A DNA stretch of 64,000 nucleotides, from positions 32,001 through 96,000 of the IMG/VR virus record IMGVR_UViG_3300027708_000022. The stretch is one strand, 5' to 3'. Positions within the stretch are counted from its first letter, which is position 1; the number at the start of each line of letters is the position of its first letter. The position numbers and the translations under genes are program-made. This document shows positions 35,373 through 54,788 of the stretch, piece by piece. Source of the DNA: a virus. The notes beneath the pieces are model-generated. The model did not search any database. It was not told the DNA's origin and saw nothing but the letters and a program-made list of their open reading frames with translations.

Positions 35373-35665
35373 GCGATAGTTGATTCTGTTTCCAAGTTCA
35401 ACTATCAAAACTCAGATGGTTATGCTTACGCAGCCATCAAAAAGCGATTATCGTTTGCTTTTATAGTTTTTTACTTTTAGCGACTATCTGTGTCGAGTTG
35501 TCCATTCCGTTACTTGTTGCCCAATCGAAACCTGGTCAGCCCATCAAAAGCATACTCGATCGTTTCCTGTCTTATCAATCTTATGACACCAAGTATGCTT
35601 TTGGTGGAGCTGGAGGGAATCGAACCCTCGTCTTGAACACTTTTCTCTTTACTTCATACAACTAT
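35373..35665 (-). ncRNA. ssrA: Circularly permuted (two-piece) tmRNA, tag ANDNRFLMAA
   Basis: T-arm and CAGCTCCACCA acceptor end (to 35602) precede the 5' end GGGCTGACCAGGTTTCGA (35542); G3-U70; tag ORF 35458-35426. Confidence 0.9.
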
Positions 35666-35671
35666 ACAACC

Positions 35672-35700
35672 ATTATATATCACTTCACGATTTTAGTCAA
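35672..35700 (-). promoter_or_regulatory. Sigma70 promoter of tmRNA
   Basis: TTGACT-N17-TATAAT. Confidence 0.8.
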
Positions 35701-36360
35701 TGGTGAATTCGCTAAAAACGACAATAATTGGGTACGGTACATATACTTTTGCCTAACAAAGATTTGTGGTTGCCCGCCTTCTACTGCAATGGCAACAACT
35801 ATAGTATCAATTGTTTTGTTAGTTAATTCCTCAAACATTTCAGCATAAGCCGTACATTGTAGGAAATAATTTAGAATGTTTTCTTCCAACTTTTCTTTTG
35901 ATGAGGACTTATAATCTATGATTGATAACCTTTTATTCCATTCTGCAATAGTATCAACACGACCAGCAATTCTCAGCTTGTCAGAATAAAGTGGTTGTTC
36001 AATTGCATATATCTTACCGATATTTTTATCCAATTCAGGACGCAATTGAAAAAACAACTCTTTAATATTTGGCATCATATTGCGAATTTTTAAATCACTC
36101 ATTTCATTGAGCAAATATTTTTCACAAGCCAAATGCAATGCTTCACCTCGGCGTGAGGCACGACCTGATACTTTATTGGCTTCTTCTTCACCAACTCGGT
36201 TACGCCATGCATCAATAGCACCTTTGTTCATAGACCCAAGTACTGTTGTTACTGACGGGTATGCTTTGCCTGAAGGTGTATAATATAACCGACCAGATTC
36301 TGTTGTCTTTGCTTCCATCTCAAAATCTAATTCAGGTAACTTCTCATGTGTGAAAATCAT
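35680..36360 (-). CDS. PD-(D/E)XK exonuclease (Cas4/RecB-like)
   Basis: YPSVTTVL, RG..H, AGRVD, IIDYKSS, Q..AY. Confidence 0.85.
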   Translation of the reverse strand: MIFTHEKLPELDFEMEAKTTESGRLYYTPSGKAYPSVTTVLGSMNKGAIDAWRNRVGEEEANKVSGRASRRGEALHLACEKYLLNEMSDLKIRNMMPNIKELFFQLRPELDKNIGKIYAIEQPLYSDKLRIAGRVDTIAEWNKRLSIIDYKSSSKEKLEENILNYFLQCTAYAEMFEELTNKTIDTIVVAIAVEGGQPQIFVRQKYMYRTQLLSFLANSPLTKIVK

Positions 36361-36680
36361 CTATTTCTTGTTCTTTTAGTAATGCGGTCAACGTGCTTTT
36401 TAACTACTTGTGAGGTTCTAACTTCTTTGATAGATTTTTTATAATATCTTTCACCAACGGTACTGCTAGGGTGTGCCTCTGCAACCTTTGATAAAACTTC
36501 TTTCCATCCATCACCAGCCTTTTGGTCTGGAGTTCCACCTGAAGATGAAACGATAGCAGGTGCTGTCATCACAGTTTCAATATGTGGATTTTCAAGAAGA
36601 TACTTTTCTCTTTCTGATATCTTCATAAAAGATTCAAAAACTTCACTTGTCTTGGTATCAATAAATCTATAAGTTGGCAT
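36357..36680 (-). CDS. FmdB-like small regulatory protein
   Basis: MPTYRF start (shorter than track ORF), GWKEVLSKV. Confidence 0.6.
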   Translation of the reverse strand: MPTYRFIDTKTSEVFESFMKISEREKYLLENPHIETVMTAPAIVSSSGGTPDQKAGDGWKEVLSKVAEAHPSSTVGERYYKKSIKEVRTSQVVKKHVDRITKRTRNR

Positions 36681-37230
36681 TAAACCACTCCGGTACAGGA
36701 CGACTATTAACCTTGCCTTTCCATGATGCAAGGTGTTGCTTATTACTTATGTAATAATTCCTGTAGGATGCCAAAGAATTACCTGCAATTTTAACATCAT
36801 CAGGCATAGCAGTTGTAGGTTCTGTGAAACCAGTAAGTGCAATATTATCAGGTACCATATCATGTAACATCTGTACTAATCCATCACGCTCACATTTATG
36901 GACTTTACCATAGCGATAGGTATATTCTTTACATAATTCAACTAAAAGGTTTGATAACCAAAAATAGTTACCAACAGAATGTCTCACCCAAACAGCGGAA
37001 GGATGATTAATGTGAGTTGCACTATACATAACAGATTCACGAGCATCCGGTAAAATCCATCTTTTGACATTGCGACCAGTAAAAGATTTTTGTACAGATT
37101 CATCACCATCTAAAACTCGATGAGCAGTGGAAAGAAGCTGACAATATTCTAATATCATTTTAATGGTGTGTTTGTCATTGTGCATTTCGGCACAAAGCTT
37201 AGGATCATGGTGTAAGTAAAAAATGTTCAC
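36667..37230 (-). CDS. Pyrimidine-dimer DNA glycosylase (DenV-family)-like
   Basis: NIFYL..DP..CA..H.DKH..KM..E..QLLSTAH; GTG start assumed. Confidence 0.7.
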   Translation of the reverse strand: MNIFYLHHDPKLCAEMHNDKHTIKMILEYCQLLSTAHRVLDGDESVQKSFTGRNVKRWILPDARESVMYSATHINHPSAVWVRHSVGNYFWLSNLLVELCKEYTYRYGKVHKCERDGLVQMLHDMVPDNIALTGFTEPTTAMPDDVKIAGNSLASYRNYYISNKQHLASWKGKVNSRPVPEWFNANL

Positions 37231-37372
37231 TTCGCTTGAACCCACTTACGAACAACATCGGTCAAACCTTGATGGTCATAGATTGGGGTAACACTCGGTT
37301 GGAAAACATCAAACATTTTTTTCCATAGAATCTGATAATTAAAATGATACATTTGAAATCCTATTGCGTGGG

Positions 37373-37765
37373 TTAAACTGATTCTTCAATTTTAGTAACT
37401 GTAATTGTTTCAGGTTCTTCGGCCTTAGGCAATTCGGTTGCTTTCAACTCTTGCAAACTAGCAACAGGTTTTTCTGCTGTAGTATTGTGTATGCCAGCAC
37501 GGCGCATATATTGTTTCAATTCATCAACATTCACTAGCTGGTAGCCAGCAACTTTACGACCGTCTTTGATAACTTTAATTATACCACGCATTTTTGTTTT
37601 GATTGCCCACATATAGGTCGACAATTTATACATTTGAATTTGGTCACCCAAGAGGATCCCAATTTCTTCCGTTGTTACAACCTTACCAGAAATCATTACA
37701 GTTAATACTTTTTGGGTATGATTCAACCTAACTGTTTTTACTTTTGCCATTATATAAAACTCCAA
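37373..37765 (-). CDS. Hypothetical protein
   Basis: Own promoter and RBS. Confidence 0.6.
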   Translation of the reverse strand: MEFYIMAKVKTVRLNHTQKVLTVMISGKVVTTEEIGILLGDQIQMYKLSTYMWAIKTKMRGIIKVIKDGRKVAGYQLVNVDELKQYMRRAGIHNTTAEKPVASLQELKATELPKAEEPETITVTKIEESV

Positions 37766-37829
37766 TTTAATTATTAATAACTACCATGGTATCACAATAC
37801 TGCCTGTAAGTCAAGCAGTCTTTCGGCAA

Positions 37830-38057
37830 TCATCGGTAATATACCGAAAAACGATTGGCGAAATCTTTCAGGCAATCCTGCATACGTTGATGGCGTGGCC
37901 GAATATCAGAAAAGCAGGTTCGTGGCCCACGATACCGAATTCGGAACTTCTTGCCTTTTTTACGCAATAGCGTTTTCACTTCATCAAGGTATTCAATAGG
38001 AACATTTTTGTACCGTGCCATTTCACGATAATTCACGAAAGGGGATAAATTCATCAT
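37830..38057 (-). CDS. Hypothetical basic protein
   Basis: RIRYRGPR motif. Confidence 0.55.
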   Translation of the reverse strand: MMNLSPFVNYREMARYKNVPIEYLDEVKTLLRKKGKKFRIRYRGPRTCFSDIRPRHQRMQDCLKDFANRFSVYYR

Positions 38058-38857: not shown

Positions 38858-38887
38858 AATACTTCCTTTTTCTAATCAACAGGTACC

Positions 38888-38915
38888 ATTATACACGAAC
38901 CAAGGCAGGTGTCAA
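38888..38915 (-). promoter_or_regulatory. Early sigma70 promoter family TTGACW-N16-TATAATGG
   Basis: Further copies at 39719, 52007, 53154, 55396, 56914, 57013, 61658, 62163, 62258, 62744, 62868, 63784. Confidence 0.85.
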
Positions 38916-38929
38916 GGATTATCTGGTAG

Positions 38930-38947
38930 TGTTGTAAAAAAACAACA
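38930..38947. promoter_or_regulatory. Palindromic operator TGTTG-N8-CAACA
   Basis: 14 copies counted upstream of sigma70 promoters. Confidence 0.75.
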
Positions 38948-38972
38948 TACATAATGTTGTAAAAAAACAACA

Positions 38973-39712: not shown

Positions 39713-39780
39713 ACCACCATTATACACTAATGATGGTAGGTGTCAAGGTTTATTCCTAGTAATGTTGTTTTTCTACAACA

Positions 39781-40088: not shown

Positions 40089-40667
40089 CTAACCTAAAAT
40101 ATGGTCTGCAATATTTAACTTAATCAATTCCTTGGCCGTTAGATATGCATCACTTGGTCCAAGGAGTTTTGATTTAATAGTACGAGATTCCAGACCGGAT
40201 GCACCTCGTAAAATTTCCATCATTCGTTCGTTACAATATTCGGCTTCTTTCATTGCTGCTTTGATATCATGGTATTTGCCTTCCATAACATCTGAAAATT
40301 GATGACACATGATACCGGTGTTCGGTGATATGTATCGTTTACCTTTTGTGCCACAAGCAAAAATTAGAAATGCTGCGGACATAATTGATCCTGTGCCAAT
40401 AGTAACAATAGGGTATTGGCTAGTACGCATAATATCAATCAAAGCAAATGCTTGATATAACTCACCACCCATTGAATTGATATACAACTTCAATTCTTTA
40501 CCCTTTACATAATCACACATATTTTCATACATAATCCATTGTATAACTTTCTTTATGTTATCTTCCGCAATATCACCGGAAAGATAGTGTGTACTATTTT
40601 CTAAAAACTTCAGCTGAATCTTATCTTCCGCTGGCAAAAACTCTTCTTGTACATAACTGTGCTTCAT
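40089..40667 (-). CDS. clpP: ClpP-like protease
   Basis: LYINSMGG, catalytic MSAA, CHQ, DAYLTAKE. Confidence 0.85.
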   Translation of the reverse strand: MKHSYVQEEFLPAEDKIQLKFLENSTHYLSGDIAEDNIKKVIQWIMYENMCDYVKGKELKLYINSMGGELYQAFALIDIMRTSQYPIVTIGTGSIMSAAFLIFACGTKGKRYISPNTGIMCHQFSDVMEGKYHDIKAAMKEAEYCNERMMEILRGASGLESRTIKSKLLGPSDAYLTAKELIKLNIADHILG

Positions 40668-41457: not shown

Positions 41458-41460
41458 AAT

Positions 41461-44321: not shown

Positions 44322-44454
44322 AGTAAATCTCCGTTGGTTAACAGTACCATTGTATCATAGTATAAGACTAATTGCAAGACAAAAAAAAGATAGTGTTGTT
44401 TTTACGCAACACTATCAGGCAAATGGTACTTTCAAATAAATTCAGGATGCTTTG

Positions 44455-44530
44455 TGGGACCAACTGGATTTGAACCAGTGACCCATTTCTTATGAGGAAA
44501 TCGCTGCTAACCTGACTGAGCTATAGTCCC
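44455..44530 (-). tRNA. tRNA-CAU, probably Ile2; CCA not encoded
   Basis: Cloverleaf, loop CTCATAA, Ile2-like T arm. Confidence 0.75.
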
Positions 44531-46838: not shown

Positions 46839-46915
46839 TGGTACGGATGACGGGACTCGAACCCGTAGAACCTTAATTTTAAGTCAAGTATGTAAACCAA
46901 TTCCATCACATCCGC
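46839..46915 (-). tRNA. tRNA-Leu(UAA), short variable loop
   Basis: Cloverleaf with CCA. Confidence 0.85.
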
Positions 46916-46920
46916 ATTAC

Positions 46921-46995
46921 TGGCACCCCCAGCAGGAATCGAACCTACGTTTACCCTTTAGAAGAGGGATGTATTTTCCACTATACTATGGGGGC
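46921..46995 (-). tRNA. tRNA-Arg(UCU)
   Basis: Cloverleaf with CCA. Confidence 0.9.
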
Positions 46996-47000
46996 ATTAC

Positions 47001-47077
47001 TGGTGCCTCAGGCGGGACTCGAACCCGCAGAATTTCGCTTCTAAGGCGAACACGGCTACCAATTACGTCACCGAGGC
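47001..47077 (-). tRNA. tRNA-Leu(UAG), short variable loop
   Basis: Cloverleaf with CCA. Confidence 0.85.
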
Positions 47078-47078
47078 A

Positions 47079-47312
47079 TTACCTACGCATCTTCCAAGTG
47101 TATTCTTCACCACTTGGGAGTTTTCCATCTTCTACTGAATCAACACCCATCTTACCAACTTGGTTTGGATTCTCACCAACCATAGTGACATAAGAAGCAC
47201 GACCAACATTACGCAAATGGTTAGTTAATGTTAACGCTTCAACCATATCAATGTAATCTTGACTACACGCTTGTCCATTAGGATTTGTCCAATACACTTT
47301 GTACATAATCAC
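47079..47312 (-). CDS. Conserved small protein within tRNA array
   Basis: ENPNQVGKMGVD..Y.W..RR. Confidence 0.65.
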   Translation of the reverse strand: MIMYKVYWTNPNGQACSQDYIDMVEALTLTNHLRNVGRASYVTMVGENPNQVGKMGVDSVEDGKLPSGEEYTWKMRR

Positions 47313-47325
47313 CTTATATAATACT

Positions 47326-47401
47326 TGGTGCTGCCCACAGGAATCGAACCTGTTTCAACGGTTCTTCAAACCGCCGCTATGACCACATCAGCTAGAGCAG
47401 C
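47326..47401 (-). tRNA. tRNA-Phe(GAA)
   Basis: Cloverleaf with CCA. Confidence 0.9.
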
Positions 47402-47407
47402 ATAACT

Positions 47408-47482
47408 TGGTACATCGTGACGGGATCGAACCGCCGACAATCTCGGTGTAAGCGAGGAGCTCTACCGCTGAGCTAACGATGC
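47408..47482 (-). tRNA. tRNA-Val(UAC)
   Basis: Cloverleaf with CCA. Confidence 0.9.
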
Positions 47483-47494
47483 ATTAATTCACTT

Positions 47495-47568
47495 TGGGGT
47501 GACTACTGGGAGTTGAACCCAGACTAGCAGAATCACAAACTGCGTTGCTACCGTTACAACATAGTCAC
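47495..47568 (-). tRNA. tRNA-His(GUG)
   Basis: Cloverleaf, C73, CCA; T rather than G at -1. Confidence 0.85.
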
Positions 47569-47623
47569 ACCAAAATGAATTAACATTTTGGACTTGGTGT
47601 TGCGTACACCAAGTAAAACGATA

Positions 47624-49030
47624 TTAGACCTTGTATCGGTCAGACATAATGGCTTTCAACATGATAGCTTCTGGAGTAAACTCTGAAGTATCTGCTGCAA
47701 GAATTGCTTTAACGATTGAAGGACTGAACCCTGAAACCAAAGCAACACCTGATTCATCATGCTTAACAGGTACGTTATCTGATGAATTGATATTCCAAAA
47801 AACAACTTTAGGAACTTCATAGCCATTTGAGGCGAATTGACGAGCAATCATCTCCATGGCCGAATCATCATGTTCTACGCAAGCATTGAATTGCATATCA
47901 GACAGAATCAACAGCATTGATGGCATATCTTCCTGTGGTACTTTGCCTTTTACAGCAACATTTAAAATCTTCATCATGGCTTTCACCAAGTCAGTAGACA
48001 TACCCCATTCGGATCTAACCATTTGATCCATCTTCTGAATGACATTACCTTTTAGGTTAAGCAATTGCGGATCACTTGAGAATGTTAAAAAGGTGTCTTT
48101 GAAAACTCCTTTGTTCTTATCTGCAAGGTATAGACCAAGAGATACAGAAACATCCATACATGATACTGAACTGTTACGACCAGCAGGGCATGACATAGAA
48201 CCAGAAACGTCAACTAAAGGTAATACATTCGCATCACCAACAAAATTCTCTAAAGCATCCCATTGGGCTACAATGTGGTCTTTTTCGGTTTTGTTGTATG
48301 AACCGTATGCTACGCCTTTCAATACATCATAAGGGAATACTGCACCAGCATTCACCTTAACTTTTGGATCGGTACCTTTAACCAATTCAGCCACATACTC
48401 CGCAAACTTTTCAGTATTACGGTAGAATGCTTTCTTGTAACGGCTAGCCGCCAAAGAAGGCACATGACTGAAATTGATGTTATCCCAATCCTTAGCACAC
48501 ATTTGAGATTCTACCACTTTAGTCATTTCAACCAAAGACTTACGATAGAACTTAGGTGTCATGCCGAAGAACTCACGCAATTCACGAGCAACTTCACCTT
48601 TGCGGGGTGTCCATTTTGCCGCCAATCCGTTTTTAGCTCTCAGAGCATCACCAAGCAAAGTGTATGCTTGTGACTTCAATTCAGAAGTCTGGAAAACAAA
48701 TAGGTCATCCCAACGACCAACTTCAGGTACTTTCCCAAGTAGCTTCATTGCCAAATCAGGACGATTGGTTTCCAAATACTTCAGAATCTGGCGAAACAAC
48801 TCACGCTCGCCAGCGCCACCACGAACATCACGAGACCATAAGGCAACTCGCAATGCTAATTCTTCATCCTGCACCAAAGCAGAAACGAAGTCAGCTGTGA
48901 TATCTTTACCGCGGCTGGCACCGATTTTATAGAACAAATCAACTACAGCATTAGCAGTAGATTTGCGAGCTTTCATACCATTGTCGGTACGAGCTTCTTG
49001 ATTTTGAACTGCGTTTACAAATGAATTCAT
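47624..49030 (-). CDS. Ro60/TROVE-like helical plus vWA protein (DUF2828-like)
   Basis: RDVRGGAGER, GRWDDL, AAKWTPR, MIDAS VDVSGSM, ILSDMQF, VFWN, VSGFS. Confidence 0.8.
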   Translation of the reverse strand: MNSFVNAVQNQEARTDNGMKARKSTANAVVDLFYKIGASRGKDITADFVSALVQDEELALRVALWSRDVRGGAGERELFRQILKYLETNRPDLAMKLLGKVPEVGRWDDLFVFQTSELKSQAYTLLGDALRAKNGLAAKWTPRKGEVARELREFFGMTPKFYRKSLVEMTKVVESQMCAKDWDNINFSHVPSLAASRYKKAFYRNTEKFAEYVAELVKGTDPKVKVNAGAVFPYDVLKGVAYGSYNKTEKDHIVAQWDALENFVGDANVLPLVDVSGSMSCPAGRNSSVSCMDVSVSLGLYLADKNKGVFKDTFLTFSSDPQLLNLKGNVIQKMDQMVRSEWGMSTDLVKAMMKILNVAVKGKVPQEDMPSMLLILSDMQFNACVEHDDSAMEMIARQFASNGYEVPKVVFWNINSSDNVPVKHDESGVALVSGFSPSIVKAILAADTSEFTPEAIMLKAIMSDRYKV

Positions 49031-49049
49031 AATATTACTTCCTCAATTT

Positions 49050-49101
49050 AACAGGTTAACTTTTTCAAGTTGGCTTTGAATTTTATTGCTGAACTTAACC
49101 T
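49050..49101 (-). ncRNA. CAGCAA small-RNA motif, copy 1
   Basis: AGGTTAA-GTT-CAGCAA...TTAACCT-GTT. Confidence 0.65.
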
Positions 49102-49107
49102 AAAAAC

Positions 49108-49206
49108 AACAGGATGGTTTCTACTTTTTGTTTTTCAAGTGAGAAAATCGAAACTCACTATCCGATGGCGATTTTACCCGCCGAGTATTTTTGCTGCACC
49201 CATCCT
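49108..49206 (-). ncRNA. CAGCAA small-RNA motif, copy 2
   Basis: AGGATGG-GTG-CAGCAA...CCATCCT-GTT, two internal hairpins. Confidence 0.65.
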
Positions 49207-49212
49207 AAACCT

Positions 49213-49286
49213 TGGAGCGAGATATCAGAATCGAACTGATAACAACAGATTGGAAATCTATAGTTTTACCATTAAACTAATCTCGC
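49213..49286 (-). tRNA. tRNA-Gly(UCC)
   Basis: Cloverleaf with CCA. Confidence 0.9.
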
Positions 49287-49295
49287 CTACTTAAA

Positions 49296-49772
49296 CTATG
49301 CTGCTTTATCTAATACGAATTTTAAACGATCCGCAGCGAAAGATGCGGCAAACGCTTGAGGTTTTACCAGAGGGATAACATTACACATACCTCTAATATA
49401 CCCAACTGCCTCATTGATAACGCATGAACTACCGTGCATTTCATCAGGATTAATATCCAAATGTACCTCAACATCACGGTCTTCCAAAACGTCTTTTAAC
49501 TTCAAATATAATTCGGCAATTTTATATACTTCCGTCATTAATCTCATTCTTGGTTTATCTTTTCTTTGATCCCAATCTCTTTCAGTTTGGACTTCACCAA
49601 AGATTTTACAACCATTCTTACCATTAATATGTACTACAATAGCTAAAGTGTAATCAGCATACCAATCTTTACCAATGAGGAAACGAGCCGAGTCCGCACC
49701 GATATAAATCTTAGTCTCAGGACTTTGTGCTTCAATAAACTCTTTCACTTCATTAACATCAATCTTACGCAT
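49296..49772 (-). CDS. RNase H-like YkuK (DUF458) family protein
   Basis: IYIGADS, RLMTEV, VHLDIN, AAS.AAD. Confidence 0.8.
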   Translation of the reverse strand: MRKIDVNEVKEFIEAQSPETKIYIGADSARFLIGKDWYADYTLAIVVHINGKNGCKIFGEVQTERDWDQRKDKPRMRLMTEVYKIAELYLKLKDVLEDRDVEVHLDINPDEMHGSSCVINEAVGYIRGMCNVIPLVKPQAFAASFAADRLKFVLDKAA

Positions 49773-49795
49773 GATTACTACTCCTTTTAAAAACT

Positions 49796-49869
49796 TGGAG
49801 CGGGTAGAGAGAATCGAACTCTCAAATATTCCTTGGCAAGGAATTAGGTTACCTTTACATCATACCCGC
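49796..49869 (-). tRNA. tRNA-Gly(GCC)
   Basis: Cloverleaf with CCA. Confidence 0.9.
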
Positions 49870-49875
49870 ATAACT

Positions 49876-49950
49876 TGGCACCGCCCGAAGGATTCGAACC
49901 CTCACCAGCTGATTTGGAGTCAGTTGTGCTGCCGTTGACACTAGAGCGAT
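49876..49950 (-). tRNA. tRNA-Trp(CCA)
   Basis: Cloverleaf with CCA. Confidence 0.9.
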
Positions 49951-49957
49951 ATAATAC

Positions 49958-50020
49958 AACAGGATAGATTTTAACGGTTTTGATTAGAAGTCAAATGTTT
50001 TAATTTGCTGTTACTATCCT
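49958..50020 (-). ncRNA. CAGCAA small-RNA motif, copy 3
   Basis: AGGATAG-TAA-CAGCAA...TTGA-CTTCTAA-TCAA...CTATCCT-GTT. Confidence 0.65.
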
Positions 50021-50025
50021 AAAAC

Positions 50026-50102
50026 TGGTACAGAGTATTGGGCTTGAACCAATGACCTACGCCTTATCAAGACGTTGCTACTACCAACTGAGCTAACTCT
50101 GC
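50026..50102 (-). tRNA. tRNA-Ile(GAU)
   Basis: Cloverleaf with CCA. Confidence 0.9.
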
Positions 50103-50111
50103 ATTAATACT

Positions 50112-50186
50112 TGGAAGGTCCTGAAGGAATCAAACCTTCACTTTTTCGTTCGTAGCGAAATGTAATATTCATTTTACTAAGGACCT
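50112..50186 (-). tRNA. tRNA-Arg(ACG), atypical D and T loops
   Basis: Cloverleaf with CCA; T loop TTTGATT, no D-loop GG. Confidence 0.75.
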
Positions 50187-50192
50187 AAAACT

Positions 50193-50269
50193 TGGTGGTG
50201 AAAGTAGGATTCGAACCTACGACCGTTACCGTATGAAGGTACTGCTCTACCAAACTAAGCTACATCACC
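50193..50269 (-). tRNA. tRNA-Met(CAU), elongator
   Basis: Cloverleaf with CCA. Confidence 0.85.
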
Positions 50270-50282
50270 ATAATGTTCTTTG

Positions 50283-50357
50283 TCTGGATAGTAGGATTTG
50301 AACCTACAGCCTCCTCGTTCCAAACAAGGCCGTCTACCAGATTGACAATATACCCAG
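50283..50357 (-). tRNA. tRNA-Pro(UGG); CCA not encoded
   Basis: Cloverleaf, C1-G72, A73. Confidence 0.85.
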
Positions 50358-50379
50358 ACAAAGAACACTACCTAAAAAA

Positions 50380-50454
50380 TGGTGGACCGTGAGAGAATCG
50401 AACTCTCAATTTCTGGTTGCAAACCAGATGTGTTCCCATTAGCACTAACAGCCC
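50380..50454 (-). tRNA. tRNA-Ala(UGC)
   Basis: Cloverleaf, G3-U70, CCA. Confidence 0.9.
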
Positions 50455-50461
50455 TCTAAAC

Positions 50462-50518
50462 AACAGGATGGAATTTTCTTTTTATCAATAAAAGTTTTTT
50501 TGTTGCTGTTACCATCCT
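50462..50518 (-). ncRNA. CAGCAA small-RNA motif, copy 4
   Basis: AGGATGG-TAA-CAGCAA...CTTTT-ATTGATA-AAAAG...CCATCCT-GTT. Confidence 0.65.
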
Positions 50519-50524
50519 AAAACT

Positions 50525-50608
50525 TGATGCGTCAGGTAGGGATCGAACCTACTTGTCCTAAAACCACGGGGTTACAGCCCGCTGCCCTGCCATTAGAGCA
50601 TCCAACGC
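50525..50608 (-). tRNA. tRNA-Tyr(GUA); ends TCA
   Basis: Cloverleaf with extended variable region. Confidence 0.8.
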
Positions 50609-50616
50609 ATTAAAAC

Positions 50617-50691
50617 TGGCTCCGTGATTAGGAATCGAACCTAACTATGACAAATTAACAGTTTGCTCCCACACCTTGCGGGTCTCACGGA
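50617..50691 (-). tRNA. tRNA-Asn(GUU)
   Basis: Cloverleaf with CCA. Confidence 0.9.
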
Positions 50692-51230
50692 ATTATTTTT
50701 TTCAATCTCTTTCTTATCGCTGTATCCGAAATATTTAACTTTTCAGCCACATTAATTATAGTATCATTCTTTAATAATTCTGTTAAATCTATATTATCCC
50801 AATCTACTTTAAATTTTGATTTAGAAGAACAAGATAAAGAACAATATTTATTGAACAATGGTTTATCTTTTTCACAAACAGGACATGAATCCATTTCAGT
50901 TAGTTTTTCTTGTTTATAACTTGTAAAATTTTCATCAAATTTTGTATAATCTTCAGGCATTTTTACAATATCACTATGAACCTCACTATGACAATTATGA
51001 CATAATAAAATGCATTTTCTCAATTCTTCAACAATAGATAACCAATTTTTAGGATTTGCTCGTATTGCTCCAAAAGATAATTCTTTCATGTTTGGGTCTA
51101 TATGGTGTAGGGCTAAAGCACTATCACATTTATTATATCCACATATTTGACAACAATTTCCCATAGACTCTATTATTCGTTTTTTGGTATTTTGTCGCCA
51201 TCTTTTTACTGCTTCTGAATTTTTACTCAT
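50685..51230 (-). mobile_element. HNH homing endonuclease-like gene inserted in tRNA array
   Basis: CQICG..LALHH..C..LCHNCHSEVH, second Zn motif, C-terminal HTH; own TATAAATA at 51264-51271. Confidence 0.8.
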
Positions 51231-51293
51231 AAAACCTCTGTTTTAAAAATTAACTTAATTTGTTATTTATAATTTTAAGGTTTTATAAAAACT

Positions 51294-51370
51294 TGGTTGC
51301 GGAGTCCTGGATTCGAACCAGGGGTCTACAGCTTATGAGGCTGCCGGGATGACCTCTTCCCTAACCCGCA
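51294..51370 (-). tRNA. tRNA-CAU, initiator (fMet)-like
   Basis: GCGGG...CCGCAACCA acceptor as in tRNA-fMet; atypical anticodon stem. Confidence 0.7.
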
Positions 51371-51379
51371 ATTAAAACT

Positions 51380-51497
51380 TGGTGTCGCACTCAGGATTCG
51401 AACCTGAACCACTTCCTTTTCGATGGAATTTTGGTATGCTGTTTATATTCTTGTCAGAATACGTTAATAAGTGTGCTACCGTTTACACCAATGCGAC
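51380..51497 (-). ncRNA. 118-nt tRNA-like RNA with anticodon arm replaced by an approximately 60-nt domain
   Basis: Acceptor, D arm, T arm and CCA intact; no anticodon loop. Confidence 0.75.
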
Positions 51498-51506
51498 ATT
51501 AAAACT

Positions 51507-51580
51507 TGGTGCCCTATGACAGAATCGAACTGCCGTGACCTGATTACAAAACAGGTGTAATACCATTATACTAATAGGGC
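51507..51580 (-). tRNA. tRNA-Thr(UGU)
   Basis: Cloverleaf with CCA. Confidence 0.9.
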
Positions 51581-51586
51581 GAAACT

Positions 51587-51661
51587 TGGCGACTCATGGG
51601 AGAATCGAACTCCCGTAACAGGATAGACAATCCCGTGTAATAACCATTATACTAATGAGCC
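51587..51661 (-). tRNA. tRNA-Asp(GUC)
   Basis: Cloverleaf with CCA. Confidence 0.9.
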
Positions 51662-51737
51662 ATATTGAAATACACTATACGGGTCTACGTCCCGTGGCAC
51701 TTTAGACTTTCATTGCCTATAAATGTACTTCAATATG
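51661..51737. repeat. Element bounded by CATATTGAARTACA inverted repeats (others at 52954-53029, 63258-63371)
   Basis: Same terminal repeats, unrelated interiors. Confidence 0.8.
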
Positions 51738-51742
51738 ACAAC

Positions 51743-51816
51743 TGGTGGGGGCACAGAGAATCGAACTCTGATAGACCGGTTAAAAGCCGGATATTCTACC
51801 TTTGAATTATACCCCC
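51743..51816 (-). tRNA. tRNA-Lys(UUU)
   Basis: Cloverleaf with CCA. Confidence 0.9.
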
Positions 51817-51873
51817 AAAAGTTTGTCACTCTTGTCACTATCCATGACAATACTCCTATAAAAACAAACAATA

Positions 51874-51948
51874 TGGTACACCGTATGGGTTACGATCCCA
51901 TCTAGCCACCTTGAAAGGGTGGTGACCTCACCAGAAGTCTAACGGTGC
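51874..51948 (-). tRNA. tRNA-Glu(UUC)
   Basis: Cloverleaf with CCA; T loop ATCGTAA. Confidence 0.85.
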
Positions 51949-51969
51949 ATTAAAATTTACTACTCTAAT

Positions 51970-51981
51970 TTTTAAAGAACA
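51970..51981 (-). promoter_or_regulatory. boxA-like antitermination site (second copy 53121-53132)
   Basis: TGTTCTTTAAAA in both tRNA-operon leaders. Confidence 0.65.
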
Positions 51982-52078
51982 TCACTGCATTTCTTACTAT
52001 GTGTCCATTATACATGAACCACTTGGTAAGTCAACAACTAATTTTATTGTTGCCTAAACAACACTAAAGCTACCTTAC

Positions 52079-52156
52079 TGGAAGTGCGAGTCAGATTTGA
52101 ACTGACGATTTTACGGGTTTGCAATCCGTTGCTTTTGACCACTCAGCCATCGCACT
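52079..52156 (-). tRNA. tRNA-Cys(GCA)
   Basis: Cloverleaf, U73, CCA. Confidence 0.9.
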
Positions 52157-52164
52157 ATTAAAAA

Positions 52165-52251
52165 TGGCGGGTAGTATAGGATTCGAACCTATGCACCTTT
52201 ACGGTGGACGGCTTAGCAAGCCGCTGCCTTCGACCACTCAGCCAACTACCC
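52165..52251 (-). tRNA. tRNA-Ser(GCU)
   Basis: Type II cloverleaf with CCA. Confidence 0.9.
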
Positions 52252-52842
52252 ATTTCCGTTACTAAAACCTACCTTACCGCCTTGTGCTTCAATTCTCTTA
52301 ATTACATCTTCAAAAAGAATCGGTGCAAAATCTGTTTGTTCAACGCATACACAATGATAACGAGGATCAATTTCCGTTTCGCTGTAGATAATTTCTCCAG
52401 TCGGATAATTAATACCTTTCGCCTTCATAACACGATTCGTATGGAGGTGTCCATGAATGTTTACACCAAATCTTCCAAGATTTTCTGGATGAAGTGGAAT
52501 ATGGCTAAGAATCATTCCGTTCATTACATGATAAGCACGAAGCTCTCTGAAATGTTCACGATATTCATCATCTTTAAAAATATCATGGTTACCACGAATA
52601 AGAACTTTGTCACCATTAAGTCTACGCATAATACCAAGGCTTTTGCGTTTCATCACTACGTCACCAAGGTGATATACTTTATCGTTCTTTCCTACTCTTT
52701 CGTTCCAGAGTTTGACCATCGCTTCATCCATTTCATCAGGATCAGTCCATGGTCTAATCTTAACTCCGGTATCTTGGTGTGTAAAACGACATACACCAGC
52801 GTGTCCAAAATGTGTGTCGCTAACAAGAAATACTGCTGGCAT
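52246..52842 (-). CDS. Calcineurin-like metallophosphoesterase
   Basis: SDTHFGH, LGD, GNHD, SH, HGHLH. Confidence 0.9.
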   Translation of the reverse strand: MPAVFLVSDTHFGHAGVCRFTHQDTGVKIRPWTDPDEMDEAMVKLWNERVGKNDKVYHLGDVVMKRKSLGIMRRLNGDKVLIRGNHDIFKDDEYREHFRELRAYHVMNGMILSHIPLHPENLGRFGVNIHGHLHTNRVMKAKGINYPTGEIIYSETEIDPRYHCVCVEQTDFAPILFEDVIKRIEAQGGKVGFSNGNG

Positions 52843-52861
52843 ATTAGTCTCCTATAAAATA

Positions 52862-52954
52862 TGGCGGGCGGCAGAGGAGTCGAACCCCATCCCCATTACA
52901 GAGAACCTGGTTTTCAAGGCCAGTCGCAGGACCATCCCCGCTGCATTACCACCC
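52862..52954 (-). tRNA. tRNA-Ser(UGA)
   Basis: Type II cloverleaf with CCA; unusual D arm. Confidence 0.8.
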
Positions 52955-53027
52955 ATATTGAAGTACACTCCTGATTCTGTTCGATAAAACAGAATGTTGG
53001 CTAGCCTACCTGAAATGTACTTCAATA

Positions 53028-53101
53028 TGGCAGCGGTACTTGGGATCGAACCAAGGATAACGGATTCAAAATCCATCGTGATACCATTTCACTATACCGC
53101 A
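53028..53101 (-). tRNA. tRNA-Gln(UUG)
   Basis: Cloverleaf with CCA. Confidence 0.9.
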
Positions 53102-53215
53102 ACATATTTACTACTCTAATTTTTAAAGAACATTTATTTCTTACTATAGGTCCATTATACACGAACCACTTAATAAGTCAACAACTATTTACAGTCTGTC
53201 GTTTTTACACAACAT

Positions 53216-53254
53216 CAAAACAAAAACCCTAGAAACTTTCGTTTACTAGGGTTT
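53216..53254 (-). terminator. Intrinsic terminator of putative attenuator
   Basis: AAACCCTAG-TAAAC-GAAA-GTTT-CTAGGGTTT-TTGTTTT. Confidence 0.8.
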
Positions 53255-53281
53255 GTGATGAATTAGATTTTATCTAATATA

Positions 53282-53410
53282 CTACGTTACACAAACCCCA
53301 TTTGATCCAATAAAGCCGCTATTCTCATTTTTTGATGAGCGATAATCGGCCGGCCATGTCGCTAACGACTGGCATCTTGGTGTTGAGAGTGTATGTATAG
53401 TTTTCATCAT
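53282..53410 (-). CDS. Putative 42-aa attenuator leader peptide of the tRNA array
   Basis: MMKTIHTLSTPRCQSLATWPADYRSSKNENSGFIGSNGVCVT; all 20 amino acids; last codons overlap the antiterminator strand. Confidence 0.7.
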   Translation of the reverse strand: MMKTIHTLSTPRCQSLATWPADYRSSKNENSGFIGSNGVCVT

Positions 53411-53416
53411 AGTCCT

Positions 53417-53445
53417 AGTATATATGCTTTTTGTTCTGCGGTCAA
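53417..53445 (-). promoter_or_regulatory. Sigma70 promoter of leader ORF (leaderless transcript)
   Basis: TTGACC-N17-TATACT, 6 nt before the ATG. Confidence 0.75.
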
Positions 53446-53476
53446 GCACTTTTTTCACTGTTACCTAAAAATATTT

Positions 53477-53764
53477 TCACTTTACCAATACATCTTTATT
53501 TTTAACAACTTCACCATTCGGATGATTATAAGCAACGAAGCCATCTTCATCTTTGAATGCTACTCCTTCCCAAAAATACTCTTTTTTCTTAAAATGAGTA
53601 ATCTGTTCTTCGGTAAATTCAGATACATCCATTCGCATTTCACCTAAGTGTTCTTGCCAATTATCATCAGCTACATTAGCGATACGGAATGCTTCATCTT
53701 TATTTTCGGCCTCGACCACATGAACCATACGGAAGACACCGATACTTTCAACAATATATTTCAT
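53477..53764 (-). CDS. Hypothetical protein
   Basis: Coupled ORF. Confidence 0.6.
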   Translation of the reverse strand: MKYIVESIGVFRMVHVVEAENKDEAFRIANVADDNWQEHLGEMRMDVSEFTEEQITHFKKKEYFWEGVAFKDEDGFVAYNHPNGEVVKNKDVLVK

Positions 53765-53766
53765 AA

Positions 53767-53982
53767 TTATCCTTTAACAGAAATTTTAACTCGCAGAAAC
53801 CATGCTAAAACAATAACTGCACACCAAGTACTAAAAGTATAAGGAATCTCCAGAATTGGGAATAACGTATTTAATGCCCAAACGACAAAAATCGGGCCTA
53901 AAGTAAAAATTGCAACAACCAGCAAGATAGCGGTCAGTCCGCCAAGTGCCATAATAATATTTTCTTTAAGTTTATCCGACAT
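53767..53982 (-). CDS. Small membrane protein
   Basis: Hydrophobic helices, WALNTLFP. Confidence 0.6.
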   Translation of the reverse strand: MSDKLKENIIMALGGLTAILLVVAIFTLGPIFVVWALNTLFPILEIPYTFSTWCAVIVLAWFLRVKISVKG

Positions 53983-54271
53983 TTTTATCTCCAATCGAAA
54001 ATTCTAGCTTGGAAAGTGAGTCCCAGCGAAAACTTCGCCAACCTTTTGCTTCAACATCATACACAGGTTGTGCTTCATCTGAATATTTTCGTGTTCCAGC
54101 ACTTTCCGACGACTTTTCCGACTTAGGAATTCGTGATTCTGACAAAGTAGAGACCATTTTACGCTCAGTACCGTCTTTTTTCGTAAAAGTCAGCGTTACA
54201 ACTTCACTTTTCAGTAAACCCTTCAACCAATTTCTTGCTTCAACATCACTAAAATCAAATTTTTCACTCAT
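53972..54271 (-). CDS. WYL-like/SH3-fold protein
   Basis: FTKKDGTER..TL, YDVEAKGWRSFR. Confidence 0.7.
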   Translation of the reverse strand: MSEKFDFSDVEARNWLKGLLKSEVVTLTFTKKDGTERKMVSTLSESRIPKSEKSSESAGTRKYSDEAQPVYDVEAKGWRSFRWDSLSKLEFSIGDKNVG

Positions 54272-54274
54272 TTT

Positions 54275-54667
54275 TCAATTCTCCGCAATTTCTTTAGCAT
54301 AATTTTTCAGTTTTAATAGTGTAACACGACTCAAAGTACTTTTGAGGTAATCATCGACCCATTTATAACTATTTTCCGTCTTTCTAACAAAGCATCCATA
54401 CACATTTGCACGAATCAAGCCGTAAACATATGCCTCTGGATCACTAAAAATGGCTTCAAAGTGGTCATCAAATTCTGGATCGCCATTTTCACTTCGTTTA
54501 AAAAATATAACATGGTACATATCACCGAATTTAGTGCCATCAACTTTTTTACCTTTATCAAAACTATCCAAAAAATCAAAATAGGACAATTTCAGGGAAC
54601 CTTCATCGTTTCCCGGCATAAGGTAAAACCCATCAAATTGGGTCGCATTAGGTTCCGACATAAACAT
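54275..54667 (-). CDS. Hypothetical protein
   Basis: Start probably MFMSEP. Confidence 0.55.
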   Translation of the reverse strand: MFMSEPNATQFDGFYLMPGNDEGSLKLSYFDFLDSFDKGKKVDGTKFGDMYHVIFFKRSENGDPEFDDHFEAIFSDPEAYVYGLIRANVYGCFVRKTENSYKWVDDYLKSTLSRVTLLKLKNYAKEIAEN

Positions 54668-54788
54668 CCTTTTGTACGGTACGCTTGGTGCGGTTACGGT
54701 CATAGACCTTTTTTGAAACCGCAACTCGCATACGGTACTTGGGTGTTCTCAAATCCTTTGCGATAAGGTTACGCTTGGTCAAACTCAT
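54648..54788 (-). CDS. ArfA-like small basic protein (46 aa)
   Basis: RNLIAKDLRTPKYRMRVAVSKKVYDR matches ArfA core pattern; below track cutoff. Confidence 0.55.
   Translation of the reverse strand: MSLTKRNLIAKDLRTPKYRMRVAVSKKVYDRNRTKRTVQKDVYVGT

What the first reader, a model, noticed from the sequence alone, without database searches (positions are those of the whole stretch)
35373..54788. Integrated translation-rescue system: sense, replace, repair, rescue, degrade
Within 20 kb lie a stall-sensing leader, a full tRNA set, a Ro60-like protein with decoy-like RNAs, a phosphoesterase, a ligase-like virion protein, tmRNA, an ArfA-like peptide and ClpP. Together they fit a counter-defence against tRNA-destroying abortive infection or starvation. 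The functional linkage is inferred only.
Basis: inference. Interest (0 to 1): 0.75.

Follow-up and report, generated by a model that had tools for sequence, protein, structure and literature searches.

The report
Phage translation-support toolbox, not one system
A large uncultured T4-like water phage carries many real genes that prop up protein synthesis (a full tRNA set, a tmRNA, a Ro60-like RNA-binding protein with partner-like small RNAs, a ClpP protease and others), but related phages keep or lose them separately, so they look like a toolbox rather than one integrated machine.

Summary
Most listed parts are real. On the minus strand lie 25 tRNAs covering all 20 amino acids, a permuted two-piece tmRNA (tag ANDNRFLMAA), a DUF2828 protein with a Ro60 fold, four conserved CAGCAA stem RNAs, an intact metallophosphoesterase, a ligase-like DUF6267 protein and a ClpP-like protease. 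The "ArfA-like" 46-aa ORF is a conserved small-protein family with weak but specific ArfA similarity. The "stall-sensing leader" is not supported.

One integrated system is not supported:
- The stretch holds several promoter and terminator units.
- The tmRNA and ClpP are inserts in the T4 core block 32-59-33-dsbA-rnh.
- In seven near-complete relatives chosen for DUF2828, tmRNA is in 7, DUF6267 in 6, phosphoesterase in 4, ClpP in 3 and the ArfA-like gene in 3.
- In five relatives the tmRNA lies more than 55 kb from the tRNA island.
- A relative whose shared proteins are mostly 83-99% identical lacks the Ro60-like gene.

One sub-link holds. The Ro60-like gene lies close to tRNA genes in all five other phage lineages sampled, with RtcB or Rnl2 nearby in two of them.

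This scan reported the same pairing (Ro60-like gene, Y-like RNAs, tmRNA-like element in a tRNA array) earlier in Felix O1-like phages. Each module is already known in phages.

The parts
35426..35663 (-). Permuted (two-piece) tmRNA. The acceptor/T-arm piece ending in CCACCA comes first, then the coding piece with tag ANDNRFLMAA. Its own promoter, TTGACT-17-TATAAT, lies at 35700-35672.
   Evidence: RF04321 scores 118.9 bits (gathering 47) and RF01850 scores 92.4 bits. Promoter. Relatives' tags end in LAA, MAA or VA.
35680..37245 (-). Context: PD-(D/E)XK exonuclease, then a phrog_385 transcriptional regulator and a phrog_624 DNA-binding protein that I read as gp33-like and DsbA-like. Together with gp32, gp59 and rnh they form the T4 core block into which the tmRNA and ClpP are inserted.
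   Evidence: The gp33/DsbA assignment is my inference from gene order.
40089..40667 (-). Divergent ClpP-like serine protease, 192 aa, with the Ser-His-Asp triad kept. It is not the prohead protease.
   Evidence: PF00574, E 1e-28. PDB ClpP alignments. A gp21-type prohead protease lies elsewhere in the genome. No ClpX/ClpA-type AAA_2 domain is found in the phage.
44389..44530 (-). Last tRNA (Met, CAT), followed by a strong intrinsic terminator (10-bp stem plus T8) that ends the tRNA unit.
45559..46752 (-). DUF6267 protein, 397 aa: predicted polynucleotide ligase-like nucleotidyltransferase with an invariant K60-Y-D-G motif.
   Evidence: PF19782, E 2e-97. Invariant KYDG. Foldseek finds only weak ligase hits. 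The top 9 VIA-align matches are RNA or DNA ligases at Z 5.8-7.4. No PF01068 ligase is found in the genome.
46839..53101 (-). Main tRNA array: 24 tRNAs interleaved with protein genes and small RNAs. It starts from the promoter TTGACT-16-TATAAT at 53181-53154.
47624..49030 (-). Ro60-like RNA-binding protein (DUF2828 + DUF7788; helical repeat ring plus vWA domain).
   Evidence: Pfam and PHROG hits. The AF2 model has pLDDT 70.5. The top 13 PDB matches are all Ro60/TROVE proteins, E 9e-9 to 2e-4, aligned over about 480-560 columns.
49053..50518 (-). Four CAGCAA stem RNAs with the form 7-bp stem, 3 nt, CAGCAA, variable interior, stem, GTT. They lie at 49053-49101, 49111-49206, 49961-50020 and 50465-50518. 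Two sit directly upstream of the Ro60-like gene.
   Evidence: The same grammar, with differing but complementary stems, occurs on the gene's strand in most of the 80 related loci.
49296..49772 (-). PF04308 RNase H-like protein embedded between tRNAs.
   Evidence: Present in 30 of 80 loci; 23 of those 30 have tRNAs on both sides.
51380..51497 (-). tRNA-like RNA with acceptor stem plus ACCA, D arm and T arm. The anticodon arm is replaced by an insert of about 60 nt.
   Evidence: Fold z-score -3.6. No Rfam family match. Found only in the two closest relatives.
52246..52842 (-). Calcineurin-like metallophosphoesterase with all motifs (DxH, GD, GNHD, H, GHxH), embedded in the array.
   Evidence: A weak PdeM-like hit appears.
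53215..53445 (-). The so-called leader: promoter-like TTGACC-17-TATACT, a 42-codon ORF with all 20 amino acids, and a terminator hairpin. It folds strongly and may be a small RNA.
54648..54788 (-). 46-aa basic protein of a conserved family related to DUF7230, with motif RNxVAKDLRTPKYRMRVVxSKKxYxRK. Its ArfA likeness is weak.

Best explanation
The stretch is the accessory (hyperplastic) early region of an uncultured T4-like myovirus from water, related to freshwater cyanophage BUCT-ZZ01. It has collected several self-contained modules that each help keep translation running in the infected cell. They are not one co-inherited pathway.

(1) A tRNA island. A complete tRNA set is transcribed from its own sigma-70-type promoters. 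This is shown. Its role is inferred: replacing host tRNAs that are scarce, decaying or cut by defence nucleases.

(2) A Ro60-like ring protein inside the island, with conserved stem RNAs just upstream. I infer that these form a Ro/Y-type particle acting on tRNA-like or misfolded RNA. In a Felix O1-like phage, a protein I take to be a relative of this one blocks a host defence.

(3) A metallophosphoesterase and an RNase H-like protein that ride within the array. Their substrates are unknown.

(4) A ligase-like DUF6267 protein. It may be the phage's general nick-sealing ligase, because no other ligase was found.

(5) A tmRNA with its own promoter, inserted in the T4 core block. It must use host SmpB, and it tags stalled products with a degron ending in AA.

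(6) A ClpP-like protease 4.4 kb upstream of the tmRNA. It would need a host unfoldase.

(7) A small basic ArfA-like protein that may bind the empty mRNA channel of the ribosome.
For: Parts are real.

Separate transcription units:
- Near-consensus minus-strand promoters lie at 53181, 52034, 42399, 39746, 38915 and 35700, and a strong terminator lies at 44416-44389.
- gp32, gp59 and rnh flank the tmRNA and ClpP, so these two are inserts in the T4 core block.

Patchy inheritance:
- In seven relatives that are at least 90% complete, counts are: tmRNA 7/7, DUF6267 6/7, phosphoesterase 4/7, ClpP 3/7, ArfA-like 3/7.
- The tmRNA is 55-106 kb from the Ro/tRNA island in G005, G006, G008, G009 and G010.
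- Locus L098 shares proteins mostly 83-99% identical with the window. It lacks DUF2828, the HNH gene and about nine tRNAs, but keeps everything else.
- L108 and L109 keep the ClpP block without a tmRNA.

Partners must come from the host: there is no SmpB, RtcB or ClpX-type ATPase in the phage.

Each module is already known in phages on its own:
- Two-piece tmRNAs in aquatic phages (PMC9004378).
- Ro60 with upstream Y-like RNAs (PMC12135203; PMC4201824).
- ClpP in jumbo phages (PMC7824862).
- tRNAs as defence evasion (PMC10264068 and PMC11555353).
- Bas63 gp130 worked alone when moved into T7.
Against: - Selection of the relatives was conditional on DUF2828, so the 7/7 count for tmRNA is not an unbiased estimate. 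It could reflect a real dependency.
- The ClpP clade lies 1.9-6.9 kb upstream of a tmRNA on the same strand in 16 of about 21 loci with enough flank. This includes loci where the intervening genes are not recognisably the same (L112-L118). That hints at more than inherited gene order.
- The thematic concentration of seven translation- or RNA-related modules in 12% of the genome is striking, although the members were picked after the fact.
- No expression or functional data exist for this phage.
Confidence: 0.65

Rival explanations
1. One reading: one integrated five-step pathway. A leader peptide senses tRNA shortage. The tRNA set replaces host tRNAs. Ro60-like protein, phosphoesterase and ligase repair them. 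tmRNA and the ArfA-like peptide rescue ribosomes. ClpP degrades tagged products. The pathway evolved as a unit against tRNA-destroying abortive infection.
For: - All parts except the leader are real and lie within 19.4 kb on one strand.
- G003 carries the full set too.
- tmRNA is present in 7 of 7 complete relatives.
- ClpP usually lies upstream of a tmRNA.
Against: - Distribution of ClpP, the ArfA-like gene, the phosphoesterase and the Ro60-like gene is independent.
- The tmRNA is far from the island in most relatives.
- There are several promoters and a terminator between the parts.
- The leader is not conserved beyond near-identical relatives, is followed by a separate array promoter, and its all-20-amino-acid property is expected by chance about once per genome.
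- No polynucleotide kinase lies near the array. The only kinase-like domain is 40 kb away in a Zeta-toxin-like protein.
Confidence: 0.08
2. A narrower linked unit. The Ro60-like protein, the CAGCAA stem RNAs, the array-embedded phosphoesterase and RNase H-like protein, and a ligase form a phage tRNA surveillance and repair particle. It would be the phage counterpart of the bacterial rsr-yrlA-rtcB-rtcA operon. The tmRNA, ClpP and ArfA-like genes would be unrelated passengers.
For: - DUF2828 has a tRNA within 1.5 kb in 68 of 80 related loci.
- The stem RNAs recur on the gene's strand, often directly upstream, with differing complementary stems.
- In five other lineages the gene sits beside tRNAs. 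RtcB lies 1.3 kb away in Listeria phage LMTA-34, and an Rnl2-type ligase lies 3.7 kb away in Aeromonas phage LAh_6.
- The phosphoesterase is within 10 kb in 37 of 80 loci and PF04308 in 30 of 80.
- DUF6267 is ligase-like.
Against: - DUF6267 lies 16-55 kb from DUF2828 in the other relatives, and it is common in cyanophages with few tRNAs.
- The phosphoesterase is absent from 3 of 7 complete relatives.
- The stem RNAs match no YrlA or other Rfam model.
- Bas63 gp130 countered a defence when expressed alone in T7, without its array.
- No kinase or RtcB is present here.
Confidence: 0.2
3. Host-takeover reading. The tRNAs only match the phage's AT-rich codon use. [quoted passage not shown] No defence is involved.
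For: - The phage is about 35-40% GC with anticodons suited to A/T-ending codons.
- The Melnitz authors propose tagging of host proteins for recycling (PMC9004378).
- The tmRNA has an early-type promoter.
- ClpP lies upstream of the tmRNA in most loci of its clade.
Against: - A full 20-amino-acid set exceeds what codon compensation needs.
- ClpP is missing from 4 of 7 complete relatives that keep the tmRNA.
- A Ro60-like protein of a Felix O1-like phage is an experimentally shown defence counter.
Confidence: 0.07

Closest known systems
Two-piece (permuted) tmRNA genes of marine and freshwater phages, such as Methylophilales phage Melnitz (PMC9004378)
   Same: - Permuted gene order.
- An ANDxxx...AA proteolysis tag.
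- An early-type promoter.
- A position next to the late-transcription genes of a T4-like myovirus.
- No phage SmpB.
   Different: - No glutamine riboswitch was detected here.
- This phage adds a ClpP-like gene 4.4 kb upstream, and a full tRNA set instead of Melnitz's four tRNAs.
Phage Ro60 homologues with upstream Y-like RNAs: Thermus phage phiLo phiRo60 with Yrl1 and Yrl2 (PMC12135203; PDB 9KOP, 9L5Y); mycobacteriophage 'Ro-like' proteins (PMC4201824); Bas63 gp130 (bioRxiv 10.1101/2024.10.10.617714)
   Same: - A ring-plus-vWA fold, with phiLo Ro60 as the best structural match.
- Small stem RNAs directly upstream of the gene.
- A position beside tRNA genes, as in Felix O1-like phages.
   Different: - Pfam files the protein as DUF2828/DUF7788, not TROVE.
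- The RNAs carry a CAGCAA box instead of the CGAA bulge described for phiLo, and they match no YrlA model.
- The gene here sits in the middle of the array.
tRNA gene clusters of large lytic phages (T4, T5, Felix O1, KVP40) and their proposed role in evading tRNA-targeting defences (PMC10264068, PMC11555353)
   Same: A dense same-strand array with embedded small ORFs and homing-type HNH genes, covering most or all amino acids.
   Different: The set here is complete (all 20 amino acids), and the array is interleaved with Ro60-like, phosphoesterase and RNase H-like genes. No experimental link to any defence exists for this phage.
E. coli ArfA (alternative ribosome-rescue factor A; PF03889; PMC5378476)
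   Same: - Small and basic.
- The core P-x-[FY]-R-x-R-V...KK...Y-x-R-K aligns with ArfA residues 8-47.
- ArfA Pro23 and Phe25 have invariant counterparts (P16, Y18).
   Different: - The query itself has no Pfam ArfA hit.
- The RF2-binding patch residues Leu19 and Leu24 are replaced by invariant Asp and Lys.
- The GKG segment is missing.
- The ORF has a normal stop codon rather than a non-stop mRNA switch.
- The family is filed as DUF7230.
Bacterial rsr-yrlA-rtcB-rtcA RNA repair operon (PMC7790460, PMC4201824)
   Same: A Ro60-type protein lies with tRNA-like or stem RNAs and, in some phages, an RNA ligase nearby.
   Different: There is no RtcB, RtcA or RtcR here. The ligase-like gene belongs to a different, uncharacterised family, and its adjacency is not conserved.

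Membership tests
Permuted two-piece tmRNA (Rfam RF04321) | Covariance-model score above the curated gathering score over the full model | tested here: met
   118.9 bits against a gathering score of 47, covering model positions 1-213
Permuted two-piece tmRNA (Rfam RF04321) | Acceptor/T-arm piece ending in CCA placed before the coding piece, and a tag reading frame starting at an Ala codon and ending in a hydrophobic AA degron | tested here: met
   The alignment shows GGUUCGAUUCC...CCACCA and then GCA AAC GAU ... GCU GCG UAA, which reads ANDNRFLMAA. Nine relatives have tags of the same type.
Permuted two-piece tmRNA (Rfam RF04321) | Works with SmpB | not testable with these tools
   No SmpB gene is found in the phage. 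Use of host SmpB is assumed.
Ro60 / TROVE ring proteins | Helical-repeat ring followed by a vWA domain | tested here: met
   In the AF2 model, helices run to about residue 260, followed by an alternating strand-helix (vWA-type) domain. The top 13 Foldseek PDB hits are all Ro60 or Rsr, probability 1.00, aligned over about 480-560 columns.
Ro60 / TROVE ring proteins | Sequence membership in the Pfam TROVE family or a match to a solved Ro60 sequence | tested here: not met
   Pfam gives only DUF2828 and DUF7788. phmmer against PDB sequences finds nothing at E up to 10.
Ro60 / TROVE ring proteins | Partner Y RNA encoded nearby | tested here: inconclusive
   Conserved CAGCAA stem RNAs lie directly upstream of the gene here and in most relatives, but none matches YrlA or any other Rfam model. 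Binding was not tested.
ArfA (PF03889) | Match to the family profile | tested here: not met
   The window protein has no hit at E up to 10. Only 2 of 42 family members hit ArfA (best E 5.8e-4), while 20 of 42 hit DUF7230.
ArfA (PF03889) | Alignable core with E. coli ArfA | tested here: inconclusive
   hhalign gives probability 33%, E 4.6e-4 over 37 columns. Controls against L17 and S4 give probability below 0.5% and E 0.17 and 0.75.
ArfA (PF03889) | Hydrophobic patch Leu19/Leu24/Phe25 that binds RF2, plus Pro23 at the decoding centre (PMC5378476) | tested here: not met
   In the alignment, Pro23 aligns with invariant P16 and Phe25 with invariant Y18. Leu19 aligns with invariant D12 and Leu24 with invariant K17.
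ClpP (PF00574) | Family profile match and Ser-His-Asp triad | tested here: met
   PF00574, E 1.1e-28. The Ser, His and Asp positions align with solved ClpP structures.
ClpP (PF00574) | Equivalence to cellular ClpP (NCBIfam equivalog cut-offs) and a partner Clp ATPase | tested here: not met
   Scores are 57-91 bits against cut-offs of 228-361. No AAA_2 Clp ATPase is found in the phage.
Transcription attenuator with leader peptide | A leader ORF whose translation controls a terminator that gates the downstream genes, conserved in relatives | tested here: not met
   A near-consensus promoter lies between the terminator and the first tRNA. The ORF is found only in relatives at 93% identity or more. 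The all-20-amino-acid content is expected by chance about 0.8 times per genome.
ATP-dependent polynucleotide ligases (covalent nucleotidyltransferases) | Motif I KxDG with the adenylylated lysine | tested here: met
   K60-Y61-D62-G63 is invariant in 22 homologues
ATP-dependent polynucleotide ligases (covalent nucleotidyltransferases) | Nucleotidyltransferase fold | tested here: inconclusive
   Foldseek gives ligases only, at E 0.03-0.3. The top 9 VIA-align matches are ligases at Z 5.8-7.4 with 164-196 aligned residues, below the Z of 8 that the tool calls clear. No Pfam ligase family matches.
Calcineurin-like metallophosphoesterases (PF00149) | Profile match and the DxH / GD / GNH[DE] / H / GHxH metal-binding motifs | tested here: met
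   PF00149, E 1e-5, and phrog_547, E 4e-49. The motifs SDTHFGH, HLGD, RGNHD, SHIP and IHGHLH are read.

The most novel reading that the evidence does not exclude
In hundreds of aquatic T4-like phages, and in Felix O1-like, Listeria and Aeromonas phages, the DUF2828 Ro60-like ring and a new class of CAGCAA-box stem RNAs encoded inside tRNA arrays form a phage Ro/Y-type particle. With an array-embedded phosphoesterase and a ligase, this particle would inspect and mend or clear phage and host tRNAs cut by defence nucleases. In addition, the DUF7230 peptide would be a phage-borne, always-on relative of ArfA that frees ribosomes stalled by such damage.
Probability: 0.15. Interest if true: 0.7.

Novelty: new member of a known kind. 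Interest (0 to 1): 0.4.

Why it matters
- It shows how far a lytic phage can go in carrying its own translation-maintenance kit. It also shows that apparent 'systems' read from gene neighbourhood can dissolve when relatives are compared.
- The surviving link gives a concrete handle on the still-unknown job of phage Ro60 homologues, one of which is reported to defeat a bacterial defence. That link joins the Ro60-like gene, its stem RNAs and the tRNA arrays, with RNA ligases nearby in two of the other phages sampled.
- Two uncharacterised families gain testable predictions: DUF6267 as a ligase in T4-like phages that lack a recognised one, and DUF7230 as an ArfA-like ribosome binder.

Tried and rejected
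- ARAGORN did not call the tmRNA in this genome. Rfam models did.
- megablast against GenBank phages found only tRNA-sized matches, so no close cultured relative is held there.
- BLASTN with the tmRNA against the 80 DUF2828 loci found nothing, because the flanks were too short. This was replaced by whole-record searches and an nhmmer profile.
- ClpP as the head-maturation protease: PHROG's best hits say so, but a T4 gp21-type protease lies elsewhere in the genome, so this was rejected.
- phmmer of DUF2828 and DUF6267 against PDB sequences found nothing. Fold searches were needed.
- BLASTP of the 46-aa peptide against E. coli ArfA gave no alignment.
- The NsiR1-like Rfam hit at 53218-53279 (31 bits, below gathering) is just the terminator hairpin.
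- The tRNA-like RNA with an insert (51380-51497) matched no Rfam family and is conserved only in near-identical relatives.
- A search for a polynucleotide kinase found only a Zeta-toxin-like domain 40 kb away. No RtcB was found.
- A probability for seven loci falling in 12% of the genome was considered and dropped, because the members were chosen after the fact and accessory genes cluster anyway.
- No complex prediction was run.

Full report
**Where the window lies.** The window is bases 32001-96000 of a 162-kb IMG/VR virus record judged 95% complete. It has T4-type baseplate wedge genes, a gp21-type prohead protease, and gp32, gp59 and an rnh-type RNase H. It is therefore a T4-like myovirus. 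No close cultured relative is held among GenBank phages. The nearest for the Ro60-like protein is the freshwater cyanophage BUCT-ZZ01, at 48% identity.

**The parts: RNA genes.** ARAGORN and Rfam find 25 tRNA genes, all on the minus strand between 44454 and 53101. They cover all 20 amino acids and are the only tRNAs ARAGORN finds in the genome. A probable extra Ser tRNA lies at 52867-52953. A permuted two-piece tmRNA lies at 35426-35663 (RF04321, 118.9 bits against a gathering score of 47). Its tag reads ANDNRFLMAA, and it has its own TTGACT-17-TATAAT promoter. The tmRNAs of nine relatives carry similar tags ending in LAA, MAA or VA.

**The parts: Ro60-like protein and its RNAs.** The 468-aa DUF2828/DUF7788 protein has no sequence match in the PDB. 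Its predicted structure (pLDDT 70.5) matches Ro60 proteins in the top 13 places, led by the Thermus phage phiLo Ro60 at E 9e-9. Four small elements share one form: a 7-bp stem, 3 nt, CAGCAA, a variable interior, the closing stem, then GTT. Two of them sit directly upstream of this gene and two sit in tRNA-sized slots.

**The parts: other proteins.**
- The metallophosphoesterase has every metal-binding motif.
- The ClpP-like protein keeps its catalytic triad, and it is not the head protease.
- DUF6267 has an invariant KYDG motif. Its model's best structural neighbours are RNA and DNA ligases at Z 5.8-7.4, which is suggestive but not decisive.
- The genome has no PF01068 DNA ligase.

**The two weak parts.**
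- *The 46-aa ORF.* The ORF at 54648-54788 is a real, conserved small-protein family: 44 clusters in one database and 668 representatives in another. Its core motif is RNxVAKDLRTPKYRMRVVxSKKxYxRK. The window protein has no Pfam or NCBIfam hit. Of 42 relatives, 20 hit DUF7230 and 2 hit ArfA, with a best E of 5.8e-4. A profile comparison with E. coli ArfA gives 33% probability and E 4.6e-4 over ArfA residues 8-47. Controls with two other basic ribosome-binding proteins give probabilities below 0.5%. ArfA's Pro23 and Phe25 have invariant counterparts, but the RF2-binding residues Leu19 and Leu24 do not. ArfA-type function therefore remains open.
- *The "leader".* It is a 42-codon ORF that does contain all 20 amino acids. 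That occurs in 0.23% of 42-residue windows of this phage's own proteins, and the genome has 341 comparable small ORFs, so about 0.8 such cases are expected by chance. The ORF is followed by a terminator hairpin and then a near-consensus promoter in front of the first tRNA. It therefore cannot gate the array on its own. It is found only in near-identical relatives. The RNA folds strongly (z -4.4), so a small RNA is as likely as a coding leader.

**Is it one system? Layout.** The 20 kb carries at least six near-consensus promoters on the coding strand and a strong terminator after the last tRNA. The tmRNA and ClpP lie in the block gp32, gp59, gp33-like, DsbA-like, rnh. This is the T4 core order with inserts. 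The gp33 and DsbA names are my inference from position.

**Is it one system? Relatives.** I fetched 80 loci encoding the Ro60-like protein at 61-99% identity and searched 21 of their parent records. The table gives presence in the seven records that are at least 90% complete.

| Module | Present in |
|---|---|
| tmRNA | 7 of 7 |
| DUF6267 | 6 of 7 |
| Phosphoesterase | 4 of 7 |
| ClpP | 3 of 7 |
| ArfA-like gene | 3 of 7 |

- Only this genome and G003 hold the whole set.
- In G005, G006, G008, G009 and G010 the tmRNA lies 55-106 kb from the tRNA island.
- DUF6267 lies 16-55 kb from the Ro60-like gene in the other relatives.
- Locus L098 shares proteins mostly 83-99% identical with the window. 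It lacks the Ro60-like gene, the HNH gene and about nine tRNAs, but keeps everything else.
- L108 and L109 keep the ClpP block without a tmRNA.

**What does hold together.**
- The Ro60-like gene has a tRNA within 1.5 kb in 68 of 80 loci, and most loci hold 15-33 tRNAs within 10 kb.
- The CAGCAA stem RNAs recur on the gene's strand in most of these loci. Their stems differ between copies but remain complementary, and they often sit just upstream of the gene. Reverse-strand matches are rare.
- The same gene family sits beside tRNAs in five other lineages:
  - A Felix O1-like coliphage has 25 tRNAs starting 165 bp downstream of the gene.
  - Listeria phage LMTA-34 has 14 tRNAs, plus RtcB 1.3 kb away.
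  - A mycobacteriophage has one tRNA nearby.
  - Vibrio phage VH7D has five tRNAs nearby.
  - Aeromonas phage LAh_6 has two tRNAs, plus an Rnl2-type ligase.
- In BUCT-ZZ01, 11 tRNAs, a permuted tmRNA and the gene lie within about 10 kb, with the tmRNA 4 kb from the gene. None of the RNAs is annotated in the stretch of the record I retrieved.
- The ClpP clade usually lies 1.9-6.9 kb upstream of a tmRNA, in 16 of about 21 loci with enough flank. Most of this is conserved gene order.

**Comparison with what is known.** Every module already has a phage precedent.
- *Two-piece tmRNAs.* They are common in aquatic phages. In Melnitz the gene sits beside a transcription coactivator gene (PMC9004378).
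- *Phage Ro60 homologues.* These occur with upstream Y-like RNAs in phiLo, mycobacteriophages and others (PMC12135203; PMC4201824).
- *Defence counter.* A preprint shows that the Ro60-like gp130 of the Felix O1-like phage Bas63 lies directly upstream of its tRNAs. It counters the ppl defence, and does so alone when moved into T7 (bioRxiv 10.1101/2024.10.10.617714). I did not align gp130 to the window protein. I take the two to be relatives because other Felixounavirus proteins match the window protein at 37-38% identity.
- *ClpP.* It is noted in jumbo phages (PMC7824862).
- *Phage tRNAs as defence evasion.* This role is published (PMC10264068 and PMC11555353).
- *Earlier notes of this scan.* They describe the same pairing of a Ro60-like gene, Y-like RNAs and a tmRNA-like element in Felix O1-like tRNA arrays. 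I treated these as leads only.

**Verdict.** The best reading, at about 0.65, is a toolbox of independent translation- and RNA-maintenance modules gathered in the plastic early region. At about 0.2, one unit is plausibly linked: the Ro60-like protein, its stem RNAs and the tRNA array, possibly with end-healing and sealing enzymes. The five-step integrated pathway is unlikely, at about 0.08. The newest items are the CAGCAA RNA class, the ArfA-like DUF7230 family and the ligase-like DUF6267. All three need bench tests.

Noticed in passing
G005:116363-117479, G006:63718-64834, G012:65309-66425: In three relatives the DUF6267 ligase-like gene is split into two adjacent ORFs of about 151 and 260 aa. 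The G006 match shows stop codons inside. This could be a frameshift, an insertion or a true split.
   Followed up: no
G000:C1:119175-121313 (outside the window; L126:176-2314): A 712-aa protein with a Zeta-toxin/AAA_33 P-loop kinase domain at residues 222-368. It is the only kinase-like hit in the genome.
   Followed up: partly
window 1-4000: GC content is 46-51% here, against about 35% elsewhere. The stretch holds three tandem paralogues (395-1417, 1417-2463, 2467-3534), all matching the same part of phrog_2295, next to a tail-fibre-like gene.
   Followed up: no
window 52867-52953 (-): A long-arm tRNA-like hit (tRNA-Sec model, 32.6 bits) that ARAGORN misses. Relative L098 has a called tRNA-Ser at the same position, so the array probably has 26 tRNAs.
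   Followed up: partly
L125 (Synechococcus phage BUCT-ZZ01, ON615601.1 102633-122027): In this stretch the GenBank record annotates none of the 11 tRNAs or the permuted tmRNA (tag ANDETFSMALAA) found here. One tRNA has a CTA anticodon and could be an amber suppressor.
   Followed up: partly
L098 (IMGVR_UViG_3300032092_000355): A relative whose shared proteins are mostly 83-99% identical to the window's has a shorter array (16 tRNAs) without the Ro60-like gene, the HNH gene or ORF 44576-45562. This marks a recent gain or loss of a block of several kb inside the array.
   Followed up: partly
window 53215-53415 (-): The 'leader' region is GC-rich for this phage and folds far better than shuffled controls (z -4.4). 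It may be a small RNA with its own promoter and terminator.
   Followed up: partly
L128 8850-10061 (Listeria phage LMTA-34); L131 11079-12002 (Aeromonas phage LAh_6): Annotated RNA ligases (RtcB and Rnl2-type) lie 1.3 kb and 3.7 kb downstream of the DUF2828 gene on the same strand. This echoes the bacterial rsr-rtcB operon.
   Followed up: no
window 53972-54271 (-): A WYL_2 (Sm-like SH3 barrel) protein is encoded between the ArfA-like ORF and the array. Homologues recur near ClpP in L119 and L120.
   Followed up: no
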